64,000 nucleotides of DNA from a virus: the IMG/VR virus record IMGVR_UViG_3300018080_000002, positions 32,001-96,000 of that record; one strand, written 5' to 3'. Numbering within the stretch: the first letter of the stretch is position 1; each line of letters opens with the position of its first letter. The translations under genes were made by a program, and so were the position numbers. The notes below the pieces were generated by a model. It saw only the letters and a list, made by a program, of their open reading frames with translations, was not told the origin of the DNA and ran no database searches. This document shows positions 19,229-32,504 of this stretch, piece by piece.

Positions 19229-19601
19229 GTCCAAGAAAAAGAAAGTAGATAAGTTTAAATCTGATTCAAGTGAGTTCTGGGTAACTCATGAAGATGATGT
19301 CGCTGAGACCTTTCAAGGTGATAAGACCATCGGTAGTGGTAATAAACCTTTTTATAAAGGTGACGTGAAATCAGACATGTTTCTGGTTGAGGCCAAGAGT
19401 TCTGAGCAGAAAAGCATCGGTATTAAGGCTGAATGGCTCAAAAAGATATCTGATGAAGCTTATGGGTATCAAAGGTTGCCAGCGGTTCATTTGAGATTTG
19501 GTTCGATAGAGGATGGATTATGCGAGAGGGATTGGGTTATGGTCCCTCAGAGCGTGTTTAAAAGGATGTTAGCTAGGTTTGGGGATGATGATGTTAGATG
19601 A
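19209..19601 (+). CDS. PD-(D/E)xK Holliday junction resolvase-like nuclease
   Basis: E...GSG...KGDV...LVEAK. Confidence 0.65.
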   Translation: MEKFQRESKKKKVDKFKSDSSEFWVTHEDDVAETFQGDKTIGSGNKPFYKGDVKSDMFLVEAKSSEQKSIGIKAEWLKKISDEAYGYQRLPAVHLRFGSIEDGLCERDWVMVPQSVFKRMLARFGDDDVR

Positions 19602-20397
19602 AATAGCCAGTATTGGGAATAGTCCTGTGGGTGATAAATGTGTTTTGTTTGAAGAAAAGATCAAGAGATTTGTGACATCAGAATTTGTTCGGGGGAATTA
19701 TCGAGAAAAACTTGATCCTGATGGTTATATCAGAGTGTCCAGTATTCCGTATATGTGTCCCAGGGACGAAGTCTGGTACGCATTGACTGACGAGCTTCAG
19801 TATAAAGAGAAAGAACGTCTCAGGATCACTTTTGATTTTGGTAAAGCCTTTGAAGGTATAATTCGTGATAATTACCTGGCTCCGATGGAGATATTGAAGG
19901 GGGATTGGGAGTGTGCGAAGTGTGGTTATGTCGTACAGTCTGAAGAAGAAAAGCTGATTAAGCCTTATTATGGATGTCCGTCATGTAATGCTATTCGATG
20001 GAAATATCATGAATCTGAGTTGGTCAATGAGCAGTATAAGATAACAGGCCATTGTGATGGTATTGTAGAGCTGGACGGGAATGACTATGTGCTAGAGATA
20101 AAATCTTGTAATGCTTACTTTTTCAAGCTTTTCAAGAATGACGCTTACTCATGCTCTTTTTTCTCGAAATACCTGATTCAGATACAGATGTATATGTGGT
20201 TGAGTGGGATTCATAACGGTATTTTTTTATTTTTTAACAAGGATAGTAGCACAATGTATTCATTGCCTGTATCTTATAGCGAATCAATTGTTGATGACGT
20301 TTTGAAGTTTGTTTCAGATATCAGGCATTGTATTAGAAATAGTATTTTGCCTGAGTGTACCTGTAAGAAACAGGATCATGTGGACTTGAAATTATGA
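19579..20397 (+). CDS. Cas4-like PD-(D/E)xK exonuclease (stand-alone)
   Basis: CPR, GHCDG, LEIKS, QIQMYM; Zn-ribbon insert. Confidence 0.75.
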   Translation: MGMMMLDEIASIGNSPVGDKCVLFEEKIKRFVTSEFVRGNYREKLDPDGYIRVSSIPYMCPRDEVWYALTDELQYKEKERLRITFDFGKAFEGIIRDNYLAPMEILKGDWECAKCGYVVQSEEEKLIKPYYGCPSCNAIRWKYHESELVNEQYKITGHCDGIVELDGNDYVLEIKSCNAYFFKLFKNDAYSCSFFSKYLIQIQMYMWLSGIHNGIFLFFNKDSSTMYSLPVSYSESIVDDVLKFVSDIRHCIRNSILPECTCKKQDHVDLKL

Positions 20398-25755: not shown

Positions 25756-25825
25756 GGTAGCGAGATGTAAGTGAGGGCTACTTCGGCCATTATGAAATTC
25801 CCCTTGCTGATTTGTTTCCGCTATC
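25756..25825 (+). ncRNA. Putative Y-RNA-like unit 1 (scaffold only, 15-nt cargo)
   Basis: ggtagcg AGATGTA agtgaggg c TACTTCG [cargo] cccttgct GATTTGTTTC cgctatc. Confidence 0.65.
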
Positions 25826-25838
25826 ATAGTATTTGTAC

Positions 25839-25950
25839 TGACGAGATGTATGTGAGAGTTACTTCGTAAGTTCGACTCTTATCCCTCCCTCCATTCCATT
25901 ACGGGGGGGTTGTCCAGTGGGGACATTTCTCTTACAGTCTGTTTCCGTCA
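25839..25950 (+). ncRNA. Putative Y-RNA-like unit 2 (permuted tRNA cargo: T arm, acceptor with internal UCCA, D arm)
   Basis: tgacg AGATGTA tgtgagag t TACTTCG ... ctcttaca GTCTGTTTC cgtca; T loop TTCGACT. Confidence 0.7.
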
Positions 25951-25966
25951 TCAATCAGGTAAAATT

Positions 25967-26078
25967 TGCAGAGTAGTGTAGGTTAGAGATACTTCGTGTA
26001 ATGGTTACACATCTGACTCGAAATCGGACGTAGCGGTTCAAATCCGCAGTTTTCCTCTTACTGATTGTTCTCTCTGCA
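25967..26078 (+). ncRNA. Putative Y-RNA-like unit 3 (cargo = D, anticodon (CGA) and T arms; scaffold replaces the acceptor stem)
   Basis: tgcagag TAGTGTA ggttagag a TACTTCG ... ctcttact GATTGTTCT ctctgca. Confidence 0.7.
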
Positions 26079-26092
26079 TTAACGATATTTGA

Positions 26093-26230
26093 TATAGGCG
26101 CAGTGTAGATTATGCTTACTTCGCATTGAAAGCGGCGGGTCGTTGGTTCGAGTCCAACTCTGGGGGTTTCCCCAGATAGCTCAGTTGGTAGAGCAGCTTC
26201 GTATGGCATTATTGATTGTTCTCGTCTATA
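26093..26230 (+). ncRNA. Putative Y-RNA-like unit 4 (YrlA-type permuted tRNA: T arm, loop-closed acceptor, D arm)
   Basis: GTTGG-TTCGAGT-CCAAC, TCTGGGG-GTTT-CCCCAGA and TAGCTCAGTTGGTAGAGCA inside the scaffold tataggcg/cgtctata. Confidence 0.75.
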
Positions 26231-26247
26231 CTAATTTTGCTGATAAT

Positions 26248-26387
26248 GAGAGCGTGATGTAGATTATAGACTTCCTTCGCATTTTAGCTCACTTGGTAGA
26301 GCACAAAAGTTAGAATTTTGAGGTAGCGGGTTCAATCCCCGCAAATGTGACCATTAGGTCGGGTCTTATTCGCCTGTTTCCGCTCTT
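26248..26387 (+). ncRNA. Putative Y-RNA-like unit 5 (cargo = complete tRNA)
   Basis: gagagcg TGATGTA gattatagac t TCCTTCG ... gtcttattc GCCTGTTTC cgctctt. Confidence 0.7.
26278..26353 (+). tRNA. tRNA-like gene nested in unit 5; anticodon TAG (nominally Leu), short variable loop, encoded CCA
   Basis: 76-nt cloverleaf: CGCATTT/AAATGTG, GCTC/GAGC, CAAAA-GTTAGAA-TTTTG, GCGGG-TTCAATC-CCCGC, ACCA. Confidence 0.7.
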
Positions 26388-26407: not shown

Positions 26408-27127
26408 ATGCTTGTTGTTGATCAGAGTCAGTTTGATAGATTTTTTTCCATCCTAGAAAAACCCGAAAAAGATGAAGTATATTTTGTGTCTCTGTCAGCC
26501 AGAAACAAGTATTTGACTGATGAAGAACGCCAACGCTTTCGCCTTGGCAAAACGGAGATGTTTGGTCGGACCACTATCAAGGATTTTAACGATCTTCCAT
26601 ATATCGTGCGGAAGCTAGAGGGGTTCCTTGGCGCATATCGCACCAGGAGCGGTTTAGAGATCCCTGAGCAAGCGAGAGTGGTTTACATCAATGTCAACCC
26701 ATCCTCAACAATTAAGGCGTATACAGCCTTGACTAAGGATCTTAATGACGCTTTATTTCGTTGTCATCTCGGCACTTGTGATTACTCGATGTTCAAGTCT
26801 ATTGAGCGCAGGATTTTGAATCATGTCCAGAGATCCAGATCTCGGCAGGTTTTCGTAGATATTGATTTTGATAACGTATCGGAAACGCTTGTTAAGGTGT
26901 TTAGAGGTCGTATTAGAGATACCGAGAATTACTTGATACGAACGAAATCAGGTGTTCATGTTTTGATCAAAAAAGAGACTTTAACGAAAGATATCAAGCT
27001 TGGTGTGATCATTGAGAATTTCAATGATGAAGCTAAAACGAGCGGTGGAGAGGTCGAGATAAACCAGAACCAGATGGTTCCTATGCCGGGAACAATGCAA
27101 GCTGGTCATTTGGTTACGATCGAGTAA
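26408..27127 (+). CDS. AEP (archaeo-eukaryotic primase/prim-pol superfamily)-like protein
   Basis: Motif I VFVDIDFD, motif II IRTKSGVH, C-terminal P.PGT. Confidence 0.55.
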   Translation: MLVVDQSQFDRFFSILEKPEKDEVYFVSLSARNKYLTDEERQRFRLGKTEMFGRTTIKDFNDLPYIVRKLEGFLGAYRTRSGLEIPEQARVVYINVNPSSTIKAYTALTKDLNDALFRCHLGTCDYSMFKSIERRILNHVQRSRSRQVFVDIDFDNVSETLVKVFRGRIRDTENYLIRTKSGVHVLIKKETLTKDIKLGVIIENFNDEAKTSGGEVEINQNQMVPMPGTMQAGHLVTIE

Positions 27128-27223: not shown

Positions 27224-28084
27224 ATGTTTAGATTAGCAATCATAGCTTTGTCGTTTTGCCTCTCCTGCTCGATGTTTGCCCGTACAAATGTTAAGACGTT
27301 CATGCCTGAAAATGACTTACATTTAGAGGATGATCTTTTTTCTCTATATGGTACTTCCGAACAAGAATTTTATGACGTTATCGAGGATGCTGAGAGGGTA
27401 TTTGCTCCTATCGTAGAAAGGCTTGGGGGTAGATTGTATATCTATAAAAAGTGGTATGATAGCACTGTTAATGCAATGACTTATAGACAAGGAGATTGGT
27501 GGATCATTGAAATGTATGGTGGTTTGGCTCGTAGACGAGAAATAACTAGAGATGGTTTTAACATGGTTCTTTGTCATGAGTTTGGTCATCAACTTGGAGG
27601 ATTCCCTTTCGTTCAAGATTGGGCTGCGGCTGAAGGTCAATCGGATTATTATGCGACTCATGCGTGTGCTAAACTGCTTTGGGCTAATGACGACAATTCT
27701 TGGACAAGACGCCAAATTCCCGCTTTTCCGAAGGGATTATGTGATAGGACTTGGAAGTCTCAAGCTGATCGTGATCTGTGCTACAGGAGCATGTTAGCGA
27801 GTAAATCGACAAATGATTTGCTGGCTGTTTTGAGTGGAGAGAGGGTTAATTATAATACGCCAGATCGATCTGTGGTTAGACGGACGAATACCAGTTATCC
27901 GAGAACTACTCAGTGTAGGCTGGATACCATGATGGCGGGAAGTGTCTGTGTAGCTCGCTGGAATCATGGAAGAATCCCGTCAACTGAAAGGAGTTCAGTT
28001 TATTATTTGTGTTCTACGGCTAGAGGTTATAGTATGGGGGTTAGACCGCGTTGTTGGTTTGCTCCTAGAATTGGGTTGCATTAG
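27224..28084 (+). CDS. Secreted Cys-rich zinc metallopeptidase (HExxH)
   Basis: Signal peptide; MYGGLARR..IT.DGF.MVLCHEFGH.LGG.P...EGQSDYYA; QCRLDT; RPRCW. Confidence 0.75.
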   Translation: MFRLAIIALSFCLSCSMFARTNVKTFMPENDLHLEDDLFSLYGTSEQEFYDVIEDAERVFAPIVERLGGRLYIYKKWYDSTVNAMTYRQGDWWIIEMYGGLARRREITRDGFNMVLCHEFGHQLGGFPFVQDWAAAEGQSDYYATHACAKLLWANDDNSWTRRQIPAFPKGLCDRTWKSQADRDLCYRSMLASKSTNDLLAVLSGERVNYNTPDRSVVRRTNTSYPRTTQCRLDTMMAGSVCVARWNHGRIPSTERSSVYYLCSTARGYSMGVRPRCWFAPRIGLH

Positions 28085-28154: not shown

Positions 28155-28270
28155 TTAGCACCACAAAAGCCAGAGATTAATGGTCATCAAGATTGGTACG
28201 ATGATCCGTAGGTGCTAATAAATAAAGTTTTCCCAACGCCTTAGCACCAAAAAGCTGAGGCGTTTTTTTT
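28155..28270 (+). promoter_or_regulatory. Attenuator-like leader with an intrinsic terminator upstream of the TROVE gene
   Basis: Terminator AACGCCTTAGC/GCTGAGGCGTT (28235-28264) + T-tract. GGTGCTAA (28211-28218) is complementary to TTAGCACC at both 28155 and 28241. Confidence 0.6.
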
Positions 28271-28295: not shown

Positions 28296-29876
28296 GTGTC
28301 AAGGTTTAATTCAACAGCAACTAAGGGGGTTCAGACTGTAAAAAATCACGGTGGAGCTGATTCGTACAAACTATCCAAGGAAGTAGAATTGTATTCGGTT
28401 GTTTGCAATAGTTTGATAACGGACAAGTATTACGAGAGTGGAGATAGTCAGCTCGCTAGAATCATAGAGTTGGTAAAAGACTGCGATCCAGTTTTTGTCG
28501 CTAACTTGGCATCCTATGCGCGTAACGAAATGAATTTGAGGACGGTTCCTGTGGTCTTGAGTACGTTGTTATGTAGGAATGTGGGTGGATCTGTAGCCAA
28601 AGATGCGGTTTTCAGGACGGTAAAACGTGCTGATGAAATCACTGAGGTTCTTGGTTATTTCGCTCAATTAAACAAAGACAATTGGAAAAAGATTAGCGAA
28701 AAAGGCCATATCAAGACTAAGAAAATGTCGAAATACTCTCACTCTTTAAAGAGAGGTATTGCGAAGGTATTTGAGTCTGGAAGGTTCGATCGATACCAAT
28801 TTTCTAAGTATAACAGGCAACGAGAATTTTCGTTCAAAGATGCTTTGTTTCTTTGCAATCCTAAGCCTCAGAACGATGAGATGGCTGAACTATTCAAGTT
28901 GATTGCGAGTGATGAATTGGGGTCTGCTGATACTTGGGAAGCTAAACAATCGGCTCTAGGTCAGGAGAATAAGGAGAAATCGGAGGATGAGGCGAAGGTA
29001 TCCAAGCTAGAGGTTTGGAAAGAGATGATTGCGAACAAAAAGCTTGGACACATGGCTTTGCTGAGAAACCTCAACAACATCCTTAAATGTAAGCCTGACT
29101 CTGCTTTTATGGATGATGTATGTCGAGAGCTGGTTCGTGGTGCTAAGAAAAGTAAGCAGTTTCCTTTTAGGTACTGGAGTGCCTATAAGACATTACAGAA
29201 AGATCATGGTCATCACTCAGATCCATTTCTGTTTCAGAAAGTATCTGATGCTCTGGAGCAGGCGATTAGGGATAGTATCAAGAGTATGAGTAAGTTTGAT
29301 GGAAATACTTTGATTGCCTGTGACGTTTCGGGATCGATGGTTACACCTGTTTCAGATAAGTCGATCATTCAAAATATCGATATAGGTTTGGTTCTTGGTT
29401 GTTTGTTAAAAAACGTTCAGAAACTAAATACTATTTTAGGTGTTTTCGGTGACGAATTTAAGATCATTACAGGTATCGGTAATGGGGTTTTGGCTGATGT
29501 CAGGAGTTCATTTGACTGGTCTCATAAAGTCGGTTGGTCGACTATGGGATACAAGGTCATTGAATACCTGAACAAAAGAAATTTGGATGTGAATCAGGTT
29601 CTTGTTTTCACTGACTGTCAGGTTTATGGATCTGCTGGAAATGGATACTACAGCAATGGTAATGAGATGGAGAGACAGTGGAGTATTTACAAGAGCAAGC
29701 ATCCTAATGCAAAGCTCTATATGTTCGATCTTTCTGGATATGGAAACGTGCCTCTAAGATTGGACAAAGGCGATGTTATTCATGTCGCTGGCTGGTCCGA
29801 TAGGATCTTTGAGGCGGTTGAGTATCTAAGAAAGGGATCTGATGCAGTAGATATGATTATGAACTATACTAGGTAA
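28296..29876 (+). CDS. rsr: TROVE-domain RNA-binding protein (Ro60/Rsr orthologue) with vWA domain
   Basis: YARNEMNLRTVP, RADEITE, FD.YQF.KY, TWE, MALLRNL.NI, SKQFPFR; vWA DVSGSM, VFTDCQ, AGWSDRIF. Confidence 0.9.
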   Translation: MSRFNSTATKGVQTVKNHGGADSYKLSKEVELYSVVCNSLITDKYYESGDSQLARIIELVKDCDPVFVANLASYARNEMNLRTVPVVLSTLLCRNVGGSVAKDAVFRTVKRADEITEVLGYFAQLNKDNWKKISEKGHIKTKKMSKYSHSLKRGIAKVFESGRFDRYQFSKYNRQREFSFKDALFLCNPKPQNDEMAELFKLIASDELGSADTWEAKQSALGQENKEKSEDEAKVSKLEVWKEMIANKKLGHMALLRNLNNILKCKPDSAFMDDVCRELVRGAKKSKQFPFRYWSAYKTLQKDHGHHSDPFLFQKVSDALEQAIRDSIKSMSKFDGNTLIACDVSGSMVTPVSDKSIIQNIDIGLVLGCLLKNVQKLNTILGVFGDEFKIITGIGNGVLADVRSSFDWSHKVGWSTMGYKVIEYLNKRNLDVNQVLVFTDCQVYGSAGNGYYSNGNEMERQWSIYKSKHPNAKLYMFDLSGYGNVPLRLDKGDVIHVAGWSDRIFEAVEYLRKGSDAVDMIMNYTR

Positions 29877-31413: not shown

Positions 31414-31487
31414 GGCTCAGTATCCCAATTGGTAGAGGAAGCTGGCTTAGACCCAGTTGGTTGTCAGTTCGAGTCTGACCTGAGCTA
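31414..31487 (+). tRNA. tRNA-Leu(TAG), short variable loop
   Basis: GCTGG-CTTAGAC-CCAGT; 5-nt variable loop. Confidence 0.8.
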
Positions 31488-31497
31488 CTTGTTTTTT

Positions 31498-31572
31498 GGT
31501 CCCGTAGCCCAACTTGGTAGAGGCAATGGATTTAAAATCCATGAGTTATCAGTTCAAATCTGATCGGGACTA
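31498..31572 (+). tRNA. tRNA-Leu(TAA), short variable loop
   Basis: ATGGA-TTTAAAA-TCCAT; 5-nt variable loop. Confidence 0.8.
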
Positions 31573-31576
31573 CTCT

Positions 31577-31844: not shown

Positions 31845-32504
31845 ATGTTTAATGAATTAAATTTGATTACGAATAATTGTTTTGAGAGTTTTCCTGGTAG
31901 TAGTCATCCTATAAATCGTAGGATGCAGCCTATTGTTGATTCTATTGTTGGCATGGGGACAGAGAACATTTCATTTATGATCAATGAATTGGTTCGTTGT
32001 TTCGCTGTCAAGGGATCGTATGTTGAGGTGGGGTGTTTACGAGGTCGAAGCTTGATTTCGGCTGCATTTCAAAATGATTCAACCAAGTGTATCGGTATCG
32101 ATAATTTCAGCGAATACGATCATAATAATGAAAACGAGACAGCATTGTTGCAGAACATTAAGAACAGCGGACAAAAAAACATCAAATTTTTTAATGGTGA
32201 TTATAGAGAGATATTGAGCGAGATATTAGATTTTAAGTCAGTAGATGTTTACTTTTATGATGGACCGCATAGATATCAAGATCAACTTGATGGATTAGAA
32301 ATTATGCTTCCCTATTTTAAGGATAAATGTGTCATAATTGTAGATGATGTTTGTTGGTCTAATGTTGCAAGGGCAAACGATGATTTTTGTTTGAAACATG
32401 CTGATTTTAAGCAGTTTGTTAGGGTTGCGCCTCATGATGGCACATTCCCACATGGGCAATGTCCATGGTGGAATGGATTTGAGATCATATATAGGGATGT
32501 ATGA
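31845..32504 (+). CDS. Class I SAM-dependent methyltransferase (Methyltransf_24-like)
   Basis: YVEVGC..G.S, GIDNF, DVYFYDGPH, IIVDD, WWNG. Confidence 0.8.
   Translation: MFNELNLITNNCFESFPGSSHPINRRMQPIVDSIVGMGTENISFMINELVRCFAVKGSYVEVGCLRGRSLISAAFQNDSTKCIGIDNFSEYDHNNENETALLQNIKNSGQKNIKFFNGDYREILSEILDFKSVDVYFYDGPHRYQDQLDGLEIMLPYFKDKCVIIVDDVCWSNVARANDDFCLKHADFKQFVRVAPHDGTFPHGQCPWWNGFEIIYRDV

What the first reader, a model, noticed from the sequence alone, without database searches (positions are those of the whole stretch)
25756..26387. Tandem array of five modular RNAs with one shared scaffold and interchangeable tRNA-mimic cargo, next to a Ro60/TROVE gene
Seen: five units (25756, 25839, 25967, 26093, 26248), 13-17 nt apart. 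Each reads outer stem - N(GA/AG)TGTA - ~8-bp inner stem - T(A/C)CTTCG - cargo - inner stem' - G-N2/3-TGTT(TC/CT) - outer stem'. Stem sequences differ between units yet keep pairing (ggtagcg/cgctatc, tgacg/cgtca, tgcagag/ctctgca, tataggcg/cgtctata, gagagcg/cgctctt), while the loop motifs are conserved, so covariation is visible within one locus. The cargos are a 15-nt stub, two permuted tRNAs opened at the anticodon, a tRNA opened at the acceptor, and a whole tRNA. Known: bacterial Ro60 (Rsr) binds Y RNAs, and YrlA RNAs join an Rsr-binding stem to a permuted tRNA-like module. The scaffold here does not show the classical bulged-C GGUCCGA/UUGAC helix, and I know of no description of a multi-topology cargo array. 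Inference: a phage-encoded Ro60 ribonucleoprotein toolkit, in which one handle displays different tRNA faces as decoys for host anticodon nucleases or tRNA toxins, or as tethers for repair and decay enzymes.
Basis: partly seen in the sequence, partly recalled or inferred. Interest (0 to 1): 0.93.

Follow-up and report, generated by a model that had tools for sequence, protein, structure and literature searches.

The report
Five Y RNA genes beside phage Ro60
A 157-kb phage carries five small RNA genes in a row that share the "handle" of Ro60 partner RNAs (Y RNAs) and carry different tRNA-like inserts; the same handle sits next to Ro60 genes in hundreds of Bacteroidota and phage loci, so this is an enlarged, little-described variant of a known RNA-protein system.

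Summary
Five units (25756-25825, 25839-25950, 25967-26078, 26093-26230, 26248-26387, + strand, 13-17 nt apart) share one layout: outer stem, bulged N, 2 covarying pairs, UGUA, 8-bp inner stem, N-UACUUCG, cargo, inner', G-N2-3-UGUU, 2 pairs, outer'.

The handle is not unique to this phage. In 164 loci that hold a relative of the TROVE gene, its 5' motif occurs 272 times on the gene's strand and once on the other. 203 of those have the full paired scaffold, against about 3 expected. 65 of 80 named Bacteroidota TROVE loci carry 1-6 units. A covariance model gave 81 hits, all on the TROVE strand, and none in controls.

The layout matches Rfam YrlA (outer stem, loop, inner stem, YUAY, T arm, closed acceptor, D arm). 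The motif G-N-Y-G-U-A is a variant of the published GNCGAA. Rfam YrlA reaches only 39 bits (cut-off 69).

Mixed cargos (stub, permuted tRNA, acceptor-opened tRNA, whole tRNA) also occur in bacterial arrays, so they are not a phage invention. The decoy or repair "toolkit" idea has no support here.

Verdict: a Y RNA array for a phage Ro60, a new variant of a known kind. The scan has noted similar arrays in about 100 other genomes. Expression and binding are untested.

The parts
25756..25825 (+). Unit 1: handle with a 15-nt stub loop (YrlB-like hairpin Y RNA)
   Evidence: Sequence. Found by the descriptor. Model R1 gives 51.5 bits, E 2e-11, but this unit is in the model's training set. RNAfold z -2.9.
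25839..25950 (+). Unit 2: handle with a permuted tRNA-like module. Order: T arm, 7-bp acceptor CCCUCCC/GGGGGGG closed by a loop that begins U-CCA, D arm.
   Evidence: Descriptor. ARAGORN folds the permuted form as a full cloverleaf ending T-CCA. R1 gives 20.8 bits, E 5e-4, with filters off.
25967..26078 (+). Unit 3: handle with a D arm, anticodon arm (loop CU-CGA-AA) and T arm. The handle's inner stem stands in place of the acceptor stem.
   Evidence: Rfam tRNA 35.7 bits against a cut-off of 29; ARAGORN anticodon cga. R1 gives 46.5 bits, E 4.5e-10, and this unit is not in the training set.
26093..26230 (+). Unit 4: handle with a classical YrlA-type module. Order: V region, T arm, 7-bp acceptor closed by GUUU, D arm.
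   Evidence: Rfam YrlA 39.4 bits over model positions 24-84, below the cut-off of 69. Descriptor.
26248..26387 (+). Unit 5: handle (inner stem with one U-U mismatch and one bulge; UUCCUUCG) that encloses a whole cloverleaf at 26278-26353. Anticodon UAG, short variable loop, A73 and an encoded CCA.
   Evidence: Rfam tRNA 59.7 bits; ARAGORN. Handle read from the sequence and found by the relaxed regex. My strict descriptor and R1 miss it (5.1 bits).
28296..29876 (+). Ro60 (TROVE) gene, 526 aa, the presumed protein partner
   Evidence: Pfam TROVE 65.7 bits against a cut-off of 23. PHROG 850 'RNA-binding protein', 6e-42. Matches nearly the full length of Thermus phage phiLo Ro60 9KOP/9L5Y (E 4.8e-30) and part of Xenopus Ro60 1YVP (1e-11). 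About 42% identical to Bacteroidota TROVE proteins.

Best explanation
The five units are genes for Y RNAs, the partner RNAs of the phage's own Ro60 protein. They are probably made from one precursor and cut apart in the 13-17-nt spacers.

The constant handle is the Ro60 docking site. It consists of the closed 5'/3' stem, a wobble-rich helix 5'-G-N-U-G-U-A / 5'-U-G-U-U-N'-C with a 3-4-nt bulge on the 3' side, the 8-bp inner stem, and UACUUCG.

The variable inner part is an adaptor. It presents a tRNA-shaped surface, or in U1 just a loop, to tRNA-recognising host factors. Such factors would include PNPase (as in the Ro60-Y RNA-PNPase complexes of Deinococcus, Salmonella and phage phiLo), RNase P, and CCA-adding or modification enzymes. 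Different units would thus give the one Ro60 ring different partners or gate it.

Shown here: the anatomy, the covariation, and the tight genomic linkage of the handle to TROVE genes.

Inferred: binding to Ro60, processing, and the tether or gate role.
For: 1. Linkage. The 5' handle motif occurs 272 times on the TROVE strand and once on the other strand in 2.08 Mb of 164 TROVE loci. 203 of the 272 have the complete paired scaffold, against 2.85 expected from shuffled downstream sequence. None of 58 motif-only control loci is complete.
2. Named genomes. In 80 named Bacteroidota loci the count is 220 against 1, and 65 loci have 1-6 complete units.
3. Whole genomes. In five whole genomes the only clusters lie at the TROVE locus.
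4. Covariance model. R1, built from 23 stub units, gives 81 hits at E<=1e-3 in 80 viral TROVE loci, all on the TROVE strand. It gives none at E<=1 in 0.5 Mb of control viral DNA. It finds unit 3, which was not in its training set, at 46.5 bits.
5. Covariation. 88.5% of cells are paired against 62% in shuffles and about 50% when the partner is slid. 19 of 21 pairs show changes on both sides.
6. Layout. The order is the same as in Rfam YrlA: outer stem, loop, inner stem, CUA, T arm, closed acceptor, D arm. The published motifs GNCGAAN0-1G and YUAY correspond (PMC4201824).
7. Protein. The TROVE protein is a full-length Ro60 homologue.
8. Precedent. Phage phiLo Ro60 binds two upstream Y-like RNAs and host PNPase (PMC12135203). 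M. smegmatis YrlA and YrlB come from one precursor, and YrlA is cut by RNase P and gains CCA.
Against: - There are no expression, processing or binding data.
- Rfam YrlA does not reach its threshold on any unit.
- The Rsr motif differs at two of six positions (G-N-U-G-U-A against G-N-C-G-A-A).
- Two ORFs and a terminator-like hairpin (28235-28264) lie between the array and the TROVE gene. Co-expression is therefore not a given.
- The covariation count was made on units picked by a pairing filter. The unbiased support is.
- The role of the cargo is unknown even for characterised Y RNAs.
Confidence: 0.82

Rival explanations
1. Counter-defence decoys. The handle-Ro60 particle displays tRNA faces, including intact anticodon arms in units 3 and 5. 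These would soak up or sense host anticodon nucleases and tRNA toxins, or recruit repair enzymes.
For: - Units 3 and 5 carry well-formed 7-nt anticodon loops with U33.
- The phage also carries a 16-tRNA array 30 nt downstream of the TROVE gene.
- TROVE proteins in jumbo phages have been discussed alongside RNA repair systems (PMC7824862).
Against: - The same cargo types, including acceptor-opened tRNA-like modules and a whole cloverleaf, occur in arrays of free-living Bacteroidota (L098; L238). The diversity therefore predates the phage and is not specific to it.
- The genome has no RtcB, Rnl2-type ligase or CCA-adding enzyme.
- Nothing links the locus to any nuclease.
Confidence: 0.1
2. tRNA production cassette. 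The handle is a processing or stabilising frame, and at least unit 5 (perhaps also unit 2) is cut by RNase P and 3' trimming. This would release, or expose, a functional CCA-ending tRNA. Ro60 would play at most a chaperone role.
For: - Unit 5 scores as well as the phage's ordinary tRNAs (59.7 bits) and encodes A73-CCA.
- Unit 2 has U-CCA right after its acceptor 3' strand.
- M. smegmatis YrlA is cut by RNase P and carries CCA in vivo (PMC4201824).
Against: - Three of the five units cannot yield a tRNA.
- Whole-tRNA cargo is rare. ARAGORN found about 2 further cases next to the handle anchor in the 244 TROVE loci scanned, which hold several hundred units.
- Anticodon UAG (Leu) sits on a body without the long variable arm. 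The phage also has another UAG tRNA at 31414.
- The 16 ordinary tRNA genes have no handle.
Confidence: 0.06
3. Chance, or repeat debris. The units are decayed tandem tRNA genes or a repeat family with no function of their own.
For: Single-unit folding z-scores are modest. tRNA-derived sequence is abundant nearby.
Against: - The loops are conserved while the stems covary.
- The handle recurs, strand-specifically, next to TROVE genes in hundreds of distant genomes.
Confidence: 0.02

Closest known systems
Bacterial YrlA/YrlB Y RNAs with Rsr (Ro60): Salmonella Typhimurium, Mycobacterium smegmatis; Rfam RF02553; Chen et al. 2014, PMC4201824
   Same: - Encoded within a few kb of the Ro60 gene, several per locus.
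- The 5' and 3' ends pair.
- A conserved 5'-strand motif lies at the stem and loop, followed by an inner stem and YUAY.
- One kind carries a T arm, closed acceptor and D arm (units 2 and 4). Another is a plain hairpin (unit 1, like YrlB).
- An RNase P/CCA-type acceptor occurs, as in M. smegmatis YrlA (unit 2).
   Different: - The motif is G-N-U-G-U-A (relatives: G-N-C-G-U-A), not G-N-C-G-A-A.
- An invariant UACUUCG follows the inner stem.
- The Rfam model reaches 39 bits of the 69 needed, and only on the tRNA-like core.
- There are five units in tandem.
- Two cargo kinds (D-anticodon-T without an acceptor; whole tRNA with CCA) are not among the described YrlA forms.
Deinococcus radiodurans Yrn1 (Rsr-Y RNA-PNPase complex)
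   Same: It is a Y RNA whose tRNA-like part has an anticodon-like arm between the D-like and T arms, the opposite orientation to YrlA (PMC4201824). Unit 3 has this orientation.
   Different: Yrn1 has a 6-nt 'anticodon' loop and a doubtful D arm. Unit 3 has a canonical 7-nt loop and scores as tRNA. The handle sequence also differs.
Thermus phage phiLo Ro60 with Yrl1/Yrl2 (PMC12135203; PDB 9KOP, 9L5Y)
   Same: It is a phage-encoded Ro60 with Y-like RNAs just upstream. The protein is homologous over nearly its full length (E 4.8e-30). Binding of the RNAs and of host PNPase was shown experimentally there.
   Different: phiLo has two RNAs, defined by a CGAA motif, with no tRNA-like module reported. 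I saw no matching handle in its upstream region.
Y RNA arrays next to TROVE genes of Bacteroidota (Pontibacter, Chitinophaga, Prevotella, Bacteroides, Pedobacter, Sphingobacterium and others), found here
   Same: They have the same handle, UACUUCG, the same 3' loop G-N2-3-UGUU-N'-C, 1-6 units per locus, and the same mix of stub, T-acceptor-D and occasional D-anticodon-T or whole-tRNA cargo.
   Different: - Bacterial handles have C where the window has U (CGUA against UGUA).
- Bacterial arrays mostly lie just downstream of the TROVE gene, not upstream with two ORFs between.
- I found no paper or Rfam family that describes this class.

Membership tests
Y RNA of the YrlA/YrlB kind (Chen et al. 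2014; Rfam RF02553) | Encoded within about 4 kb of a Ro60/TROVE gene | tested here: met
   The array ends 1.9 kb upstream of the TROVE gene on the same strand.
Y RNA of the YrlA/YrlB kind (Chen et al. 2014; Rfam RF02553) | The handle co-occurs with TROVE genes across genomes | tested here: met
   272 against 1 by strand, and 203 complete against about 3 expected. 220 against 1 in named Bacteroidota. Clusters only at TROVE loci in 5 whole genomes. The model gives 81 hits against 0 in controls.
Y RNA of the YrlA/YrlB kind (Chen et al. 2014; Rfam RF02553) | 5'-strand motif GNCGAAN0-1G at the junction of terminal stem and loop | tested here: inconclusive
   The window has G-A-U-G-U-A or A-G-U-G-U-A, so 2 of 6 positions differ. 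Relatives have G-N-C-G-U-A, so 1 differs. The position in the layout is the same as in Rfam YrlA 'cggCgaAUG'.
Y RNA of the YrlA/YrlB kind (Chen et al. 2014; Rfam RF02553) | Terminal stem, internal loop and inner stem supported by covariation | tested here: met
   Within the five units the stems differ yet pair. Across 23 units, 19 of 21 pairs change on both sides. The unbiased pairing test is.
Y RNA of the YrlA/YrlB kind (Chen et al. 2014; Rfam RF02553) | Conserved YUAY after the inner stem | tested here: met
   CUAC, UUAC, AUAC and UUAC in units 1-4; UUCC in unit 5.
Y RNA of the YrlA/YrlB kind (Chen et al. 2014; Rfam RF02553) | tRNA-like module in the order T arm, closed acceptor, D arm (at least one RNA per locus) | tested here: met
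   Unit 4: Rfam YrlA positions 24-84, 39.4 bits, E 7e-7. Unit 2: a cloverleaf after permutation.
Y RNA of the YrlA/YrlB kind (Chen et al. 2014; Rfam RF02553) | Reaches the Rfam RF02553 gathering score (69 bits) | tested here: not met
   The best score is 39.4 bits, on unit 4 only. None reaches it in 8 related loci either.
Y RNA of the YrlA/YrlB kind (Chen et al. 2014; Rfam RF02553) | Bound by Ro60, and accumulation depends on Ro60 | not testable with these tools
   This needs EMSA, RIP or Northern blots.
Ro60 / TROVE protein | TROVE domain and full-length similarity to solved Ro60 rings | tested here: met
   Pfam PF05731 at 65.7 bits. 9KOP at E 4.8e-30 over residues 15-519, and 1YVP at 1e-11. 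NCBIfam Rsr equivalog only 21.9 bits against a cut-off of 900, so it is not an orthologue of the enterobacterial Rsr type.
Canonical tRNA (unit 5 cargo only) | Cloverleaf above the Rfam tRNA threshold, with identity features that fit the anticodon | tested here: inconclusive
   The cloverleaf scores 59.7 bits and A73-CCA is encoded. Anticodon UAG (Leu) sits on a body with a 5-nt variable loop, unlike bacterial class II tRNA-Leu (the class II rule is established knowledge).

The most novel reading that the evidence does not exclude
The UACUUCG handle is a general Ro60 docking module onto which whole, permuted or acceptor-less tRNAs are swapped. In this phage the two anticodon-bearing units (CGA and UAG, both anticodons of class II tRNAs placed on class I bodies) and the CCA-ending units (2 and 5) would make the Ro60 particle one of three things: a decoy or sensor for host anticodon-directed nucleases, a cage that releases a non-standard tRNA on RNase P cleavage, or a device that brings tRNA-modifying or tRNA-charging enzymes to Ro60 substrates.
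Probability: 0.1. Interest if true: 0.8.

Novelty: new variant of a known kind. Interest (0 to 1): 0.48.

Why it matters
What the tRNA-like part of bacterial Y RNAs does is still an open question. This locus, and the several hundred related ones found here, show that one constant Ro60 handle carries very different inner modules in nature: a bare loop, a tRNA opened at the anticodon, a tRNA opened at the acceptor, and even a complete CCA-ending tRNA. That fits a modular adaptor role.

It also gives ready-made natural variants for binding, processing and pull-down experiments.

It shows as well that the Rfam YrlA model misses a large class in Bacteroidota and their phages. Annotation pipelines therefore leave these RNAs unmarked, or call parts of them tRNA genes, as here for 'tRNA-Ser(cga)' and 'tRNA-Leu(tag)'.

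Tried and rejected
- **Viral pattern scan.** The exact pattern GATGTANNTNANNNNTACTTCG over IMG/VR gave 58 single hits. None has a complete scaffold and none matches model R1, so they are chance hits. I used them as negative controls.
- **MAFFT on the five whole units (A1).** It misaligned the 3' halves. I used short 'stub' units from many loci instead (A3).
- **Rfam.** No family reaches threshold on the array. Permissive mode gave only the partial YrlA hit and tRNA hits. The same held in related loci.
- **Sigma-70 promoter scan.** Fewer sites than in shuffles (7 against 11.7), so it is uninformative.
- **phiLo upstream region.** I recognised no matching handle.
- **RNA repair toolkit.** No RtcB, Rnl2-type RNA ligase or CCA-adding enzyme in the 157-kb genome.
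- **AEP-like ORF 26408-27127 as catalytic partner of the system.** The AEP fold is supported. However, only 3 of 40 viral relatives lie within 8 kb of a TROVE gene, so I rejected it as a dedicated partner.
- **Structure work on that ORF.** The single-sequence fold was useless (pLDDT 40). Foldseek against the PDB gave nothing at E<=1e-3.
- **Minus-strand 84-aa ORF over units 3-4.** No PHROG family. I treat it as spurious.
- So there is no context for the closest TROVE relatives (60% and 49% identity) and no expression evidence. Two reviews on bacterial Y RNAs (PMC10870794, PMC6047535) and the supplement of Chen et al. 2014 were not held. I therefore cannot exclude that Bacteroidota YrlA sequences are listed there.
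Full report
**What is there.** The window lies in a complete 157,357-bp virus record with direct terminal repeats and 40% G+C. Between an upstream operon and an ORF that starts at 26408 there is a 0.8-kb stretch without a credible ORF. It holds five units at 25756-25825, 25839-25950, 25967-26078, 26093-26230 and 26248-26387 (+ strand), separated by 13, 16, 14 and 17 nt.

All five read as follows:
- outer stem (5-8 bp);
- one unpaired base;
- two pairs that covary (GA with UC, or AG with CU);
- UGUA;
- inner stem of 8 bp;
- N-UACUUCG (UUCCUUCG in unit 5);
- cargo;
- inner stem';
- G-N2-3-UGUU;
- the two pairs, then outer stem'.

The stems differ between units but keep pairing. The 5' pattern occurs four times against 0.00 expected in shuffles. 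A relaxed form finds just these five places in the whole genome. Folding energy alone is not impressive (z -1.5 to -2.9).

**The cargos.**
- Unit 1 has a 15-nt loop.
- Unit 2 has a T arm, a 7-bp acceptor-like stem closed by a 13-nt loop that begins U-CCA, and a short D arm. When I permuted it in silico, using the handle's inner stem as anticodon stem, ARAGORN drew a full cloverleaf ending T-CCA.
- Unit 4 has a V region, a T arm, a 7-bp acceptor closed by GUUU, and a D arm. It matches positions 24-84 of Rfam YrlA (39.4 bits, E 7e-7; cut-off 69).
- Unit 3 is D arm, anticodon arm (CU-CGA-AA), T arm, with the inner stem in place of an acceptor (Rfam tRNA 35.7 bits).
- Unit 5 encloses a whole cloverleaf at 26278-26353 with anticodon UAG, a 5-nt variable loop, A73 and an encoded CCA (59.7 bits).

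**The protein.** The ORF 28296-29876 is a full-length Ro60 homologue:
- Pfam TROVE 65.7 bits and PHROG 850.
- Thermus phage phiLo Ro60 (9KOP/9L5Y) at E 4.8e-30 over residues 15-519, and Xenopus Ro60 at 1e-11.
- Its nearest named relatives, about 42% identical, are all from Bacteroidota.

**Is the handle linked to Ro60?** I collected 164 loci around TROVE relatives from metagenomes and IMG/VR, each oriented with the gene on the + strand.
- A motif-only search (N-R-N-Y-G-[UAC]-A, 8 nt, N-UACUUCG) found 272 hits on the TROVE strand and 1 on the other.
- 203 of the 272 have the complete paired scaffold downstream, against 2.85 expected when the downstream sequence is shuffled.
- None of 58 control loci, which matched the 5' pattern by chance in a collection scan, is complete.
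- In 80 loci from named genomes, almost all of them Bacteroidota (Pontibacter, Chitinophaga, Prevotella, Bacteroides, Pedobacter, Sphingobacterium, Flavobacterium, Emticicia and others), the count is 220 against 1. 65 of these loci have 1-6 complete units, mostly just downstream of the gene.
- In five whole genomes of 4.6-8.4 Mb the only clusters (5, 4, 3, 2 and 1 hits) lie at the TROVE locus. The rest are background singletons.
- Covariance model R1, built from 23 short-cargo units of many loci, gave 81 hits at E<=1e-3 in 1.19 Mb of viral TROVE loci, all on the TROVE strand. It gave none at E<=1 in 0.51 Mb of control viral DNA. It finds unit 3, which was not in its training set, at 46.5 bits.
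- On the 23-unit alignment 88.5% of cells pair (62% in shuffles, about 50% when the partner is slid), and 19 of 21 pairs change on both sides. Those units had been picked with a pairing filter, so one search is the unbiased test.

**What it corresponds to.** The Rfam YrlA consensus, seen in full, reads: outer stem cggCga, loop AUGCu, 7-bp inner stem, CUA, short stem, T arm, closed acceptor, D arm, then the 3' strands with an 8-nt loop.

That is the same order of parts as here. Chen et al. 2014 (PMC4201824) describe a 5' motif GNCGAAN0-1G thought to be the Rsr contact, and a conserved YUAY at the start of the V region.
- The Bacteroidota handle has U-G-N-C-G-U-A-G, one change from the published motif.
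- The window has G-N-U-G-U-A, two changes.
- Both are followed after the inner stem by (U/A/C)UAC.

Opposite the motif lies 5'-UGUU-N'-C. The element can therefore be drawn as a continued helix: G-C, N-N', then a Y-U mismatch, G-U, U-G and A-U, with a 3-4-nt bulge. At the U-G position, relatives with A on the 5' side have U on the 3' side. I take this as a divergent form of the Ro60-binding helix. That step is inference.

The same paper reports several matching facts:
- M. smegmatis YrlA and YrlB come from one precursor;
- its YrlA is cut by RNase P and gains CCA;
- Deinococcus Yrn1 has the opposite arm orientation.

Units 1, 2/4 and 3 thus each have a described counterpart, but in different organisms.

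Thermus phage phiLo Ro60 has been shown to bind two upstream Y-like RNAs and host PNPase (PMC12135203). A jumbo-phage survey already lists TROVE proteins with a 'tRNA-like partner' (PMC7824862).

**What is not covered by what I could read.**
- Rfam YrlA never reaches its threshold on the window or on eight related loci.
- No other Rfam family matches.
- I found no paper that describes the UACUUCG handle, arrays of up to six units, or whole or acceptor-opened tRNA cargo.
- The supplement of Chen et al. and two reviews were not held, so this is absence in what I could read, not proof.

**Is the mixed cargo a phage speciality? No.** A bacterial array (L098) has a YrlA-type unit, two units with D-anticodon-T cargo and a stub. 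A Spirosomataceae genome (L238) and a phage contig (L173) have a whole cloverleaf inside the handle. Several viral loci have 4-6 units. A rough sort of 197 distinct units gave the following:
- 59 with the T arm before the D arm;
- 48 with a T arm only;
- 38 stubs;
- 33 with neither arm motif;
- 11 that ARAGORN called tRNA, about 5 of which begin at the handle anchor as unit 3 does.

Whole-tRNA cargo is rare but not unique.

**Function.** Nothing in the genome supports an RNA repair or decoy toolkit.
- RtcB, Rnl2-type ligase and CCA-adding enzyme are absent.
- The ORF next to the array (26408-27127) has an AEP (primase-polymerase) fold. The top eleven structural neighbours are all AEP enzymes (Z 9.9 to cyanophage S-2L PrimPol), and DxD and SGxH are conserved.
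- However, only 3 of 40 viral relatives of that ORF lie near a TROVE gene. I do not count it as part of the system.
- The next ORF (27224-28084) has a signal-like N-terminus and an HEFGH motif. It looks like a secreted zinc peptidase.

I therefore commit to the ordinary reading: five Y RNAs that dock on the phage Ro60 through the handle and use their tRNA-shaped parts as adaptors to tRNA-recognising host factors. PNPase is the documented example. Units 2 and 5 are perhaps cut by RNase P.

My confidence that these are Ro60 partner RNAs is about 0.8. My confidence in the tether or adaptor role is about 0.4.

**Verdict.** It is a new variant of a known kind, a many-unit Bacteroidota/phage-type Y RNA array with unusual cargo, and not a new system. 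Earlier notes of this scan list similar arrays in about 100 other genomes. They are unchecked AI notes and I did not use them as evidence.

Noticed in passing
window 26408-27127 (+): A 239-aa ORF that starts 20 nt after unit 5 has an AEP (primase-polymerase) fold. The model has pLDDT 97 and its top 11 structural neighbours are all AEP enzymes (Z 9.9-6.7). D151-x-D153-x-D155, T179..G182-x-H184 and E215 are invariant in 47 relatives. No Pfam or PHROG family matches. Only 3 of 40 viral relatives lie within 8 kb of a TROVE gene.
   Followed up: yes
window 27224-28084 (+): A 286-aa ORF with a hydrophobic, Cys-containing N-terminus and an HEFGH motif. Protein-atlas neighbours point to M48/DUF4344-like zinc peptidases, mostly from Bdellovibrionota. 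It has no relatives in the TROVE loci.
   Followed up: partly
window 28235-28264 (+): A strong terminator-like hairpin (11 bp, T8) ends about 30 nt before the TROVE start codon. The Ro60 gene may therefore be transcribed or regulated apart from the RNA array.
   Followed up: no
window 31414-31488 and 31498-31573 (+): The two 'tRNA-Leu' genes of the phage's tRNA array (anticodons UAG and UAA) are 75-76 nt long with a 5-nt variable loop. They lack the long variable arm of bacterial tRNA-Leu. The Ser and Tyr tRNAs beside them are long (85-92 nt).
   Followed up: no
window 25996-26050 and 26278-26353; L173 9906-9978; L238 3281-3350: Four of about six anticodon-bearing cargos seen inside handles carry anticodons of class II tRNAs (Ser CGA, Leu UAG, Ser GCU, Tyr AUA) on short class I bodies. 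The sample is small and the anticodon calls come from ARAGORN only.
   Followed up: no
window 25886-25902: The loop that closes the acceptor-like stem of unit 2 begins U-CCA (discriminator plus CCA). This resembles M. smegmatis YrlA, which is cut by RNase P and carries CCA.
   Followed up: partly
L173 6114-6471: A viral contig with a six-unit Y RNA array next to its TROVE gene also encodes a full tmRNA (160.9 bits) and several tRNAs just upstream.
   Followed up: no
L064 2125-2380: The contig with the closest fetched TROVE relative (45% identity) has its Y RNA units scattered among ORFs. One of these is a small RRM-type RNA-binding protein directly upstream of three units.
   Followed up: no
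window 19579-20397 (+) and 31845-32504 (+): A Cas4/RecB-like exonuclease ORF (PHROG 2506, 3e-22), and a class I methyltransferase ORF that sits inside the tRNA gene region.
   Followed up: no
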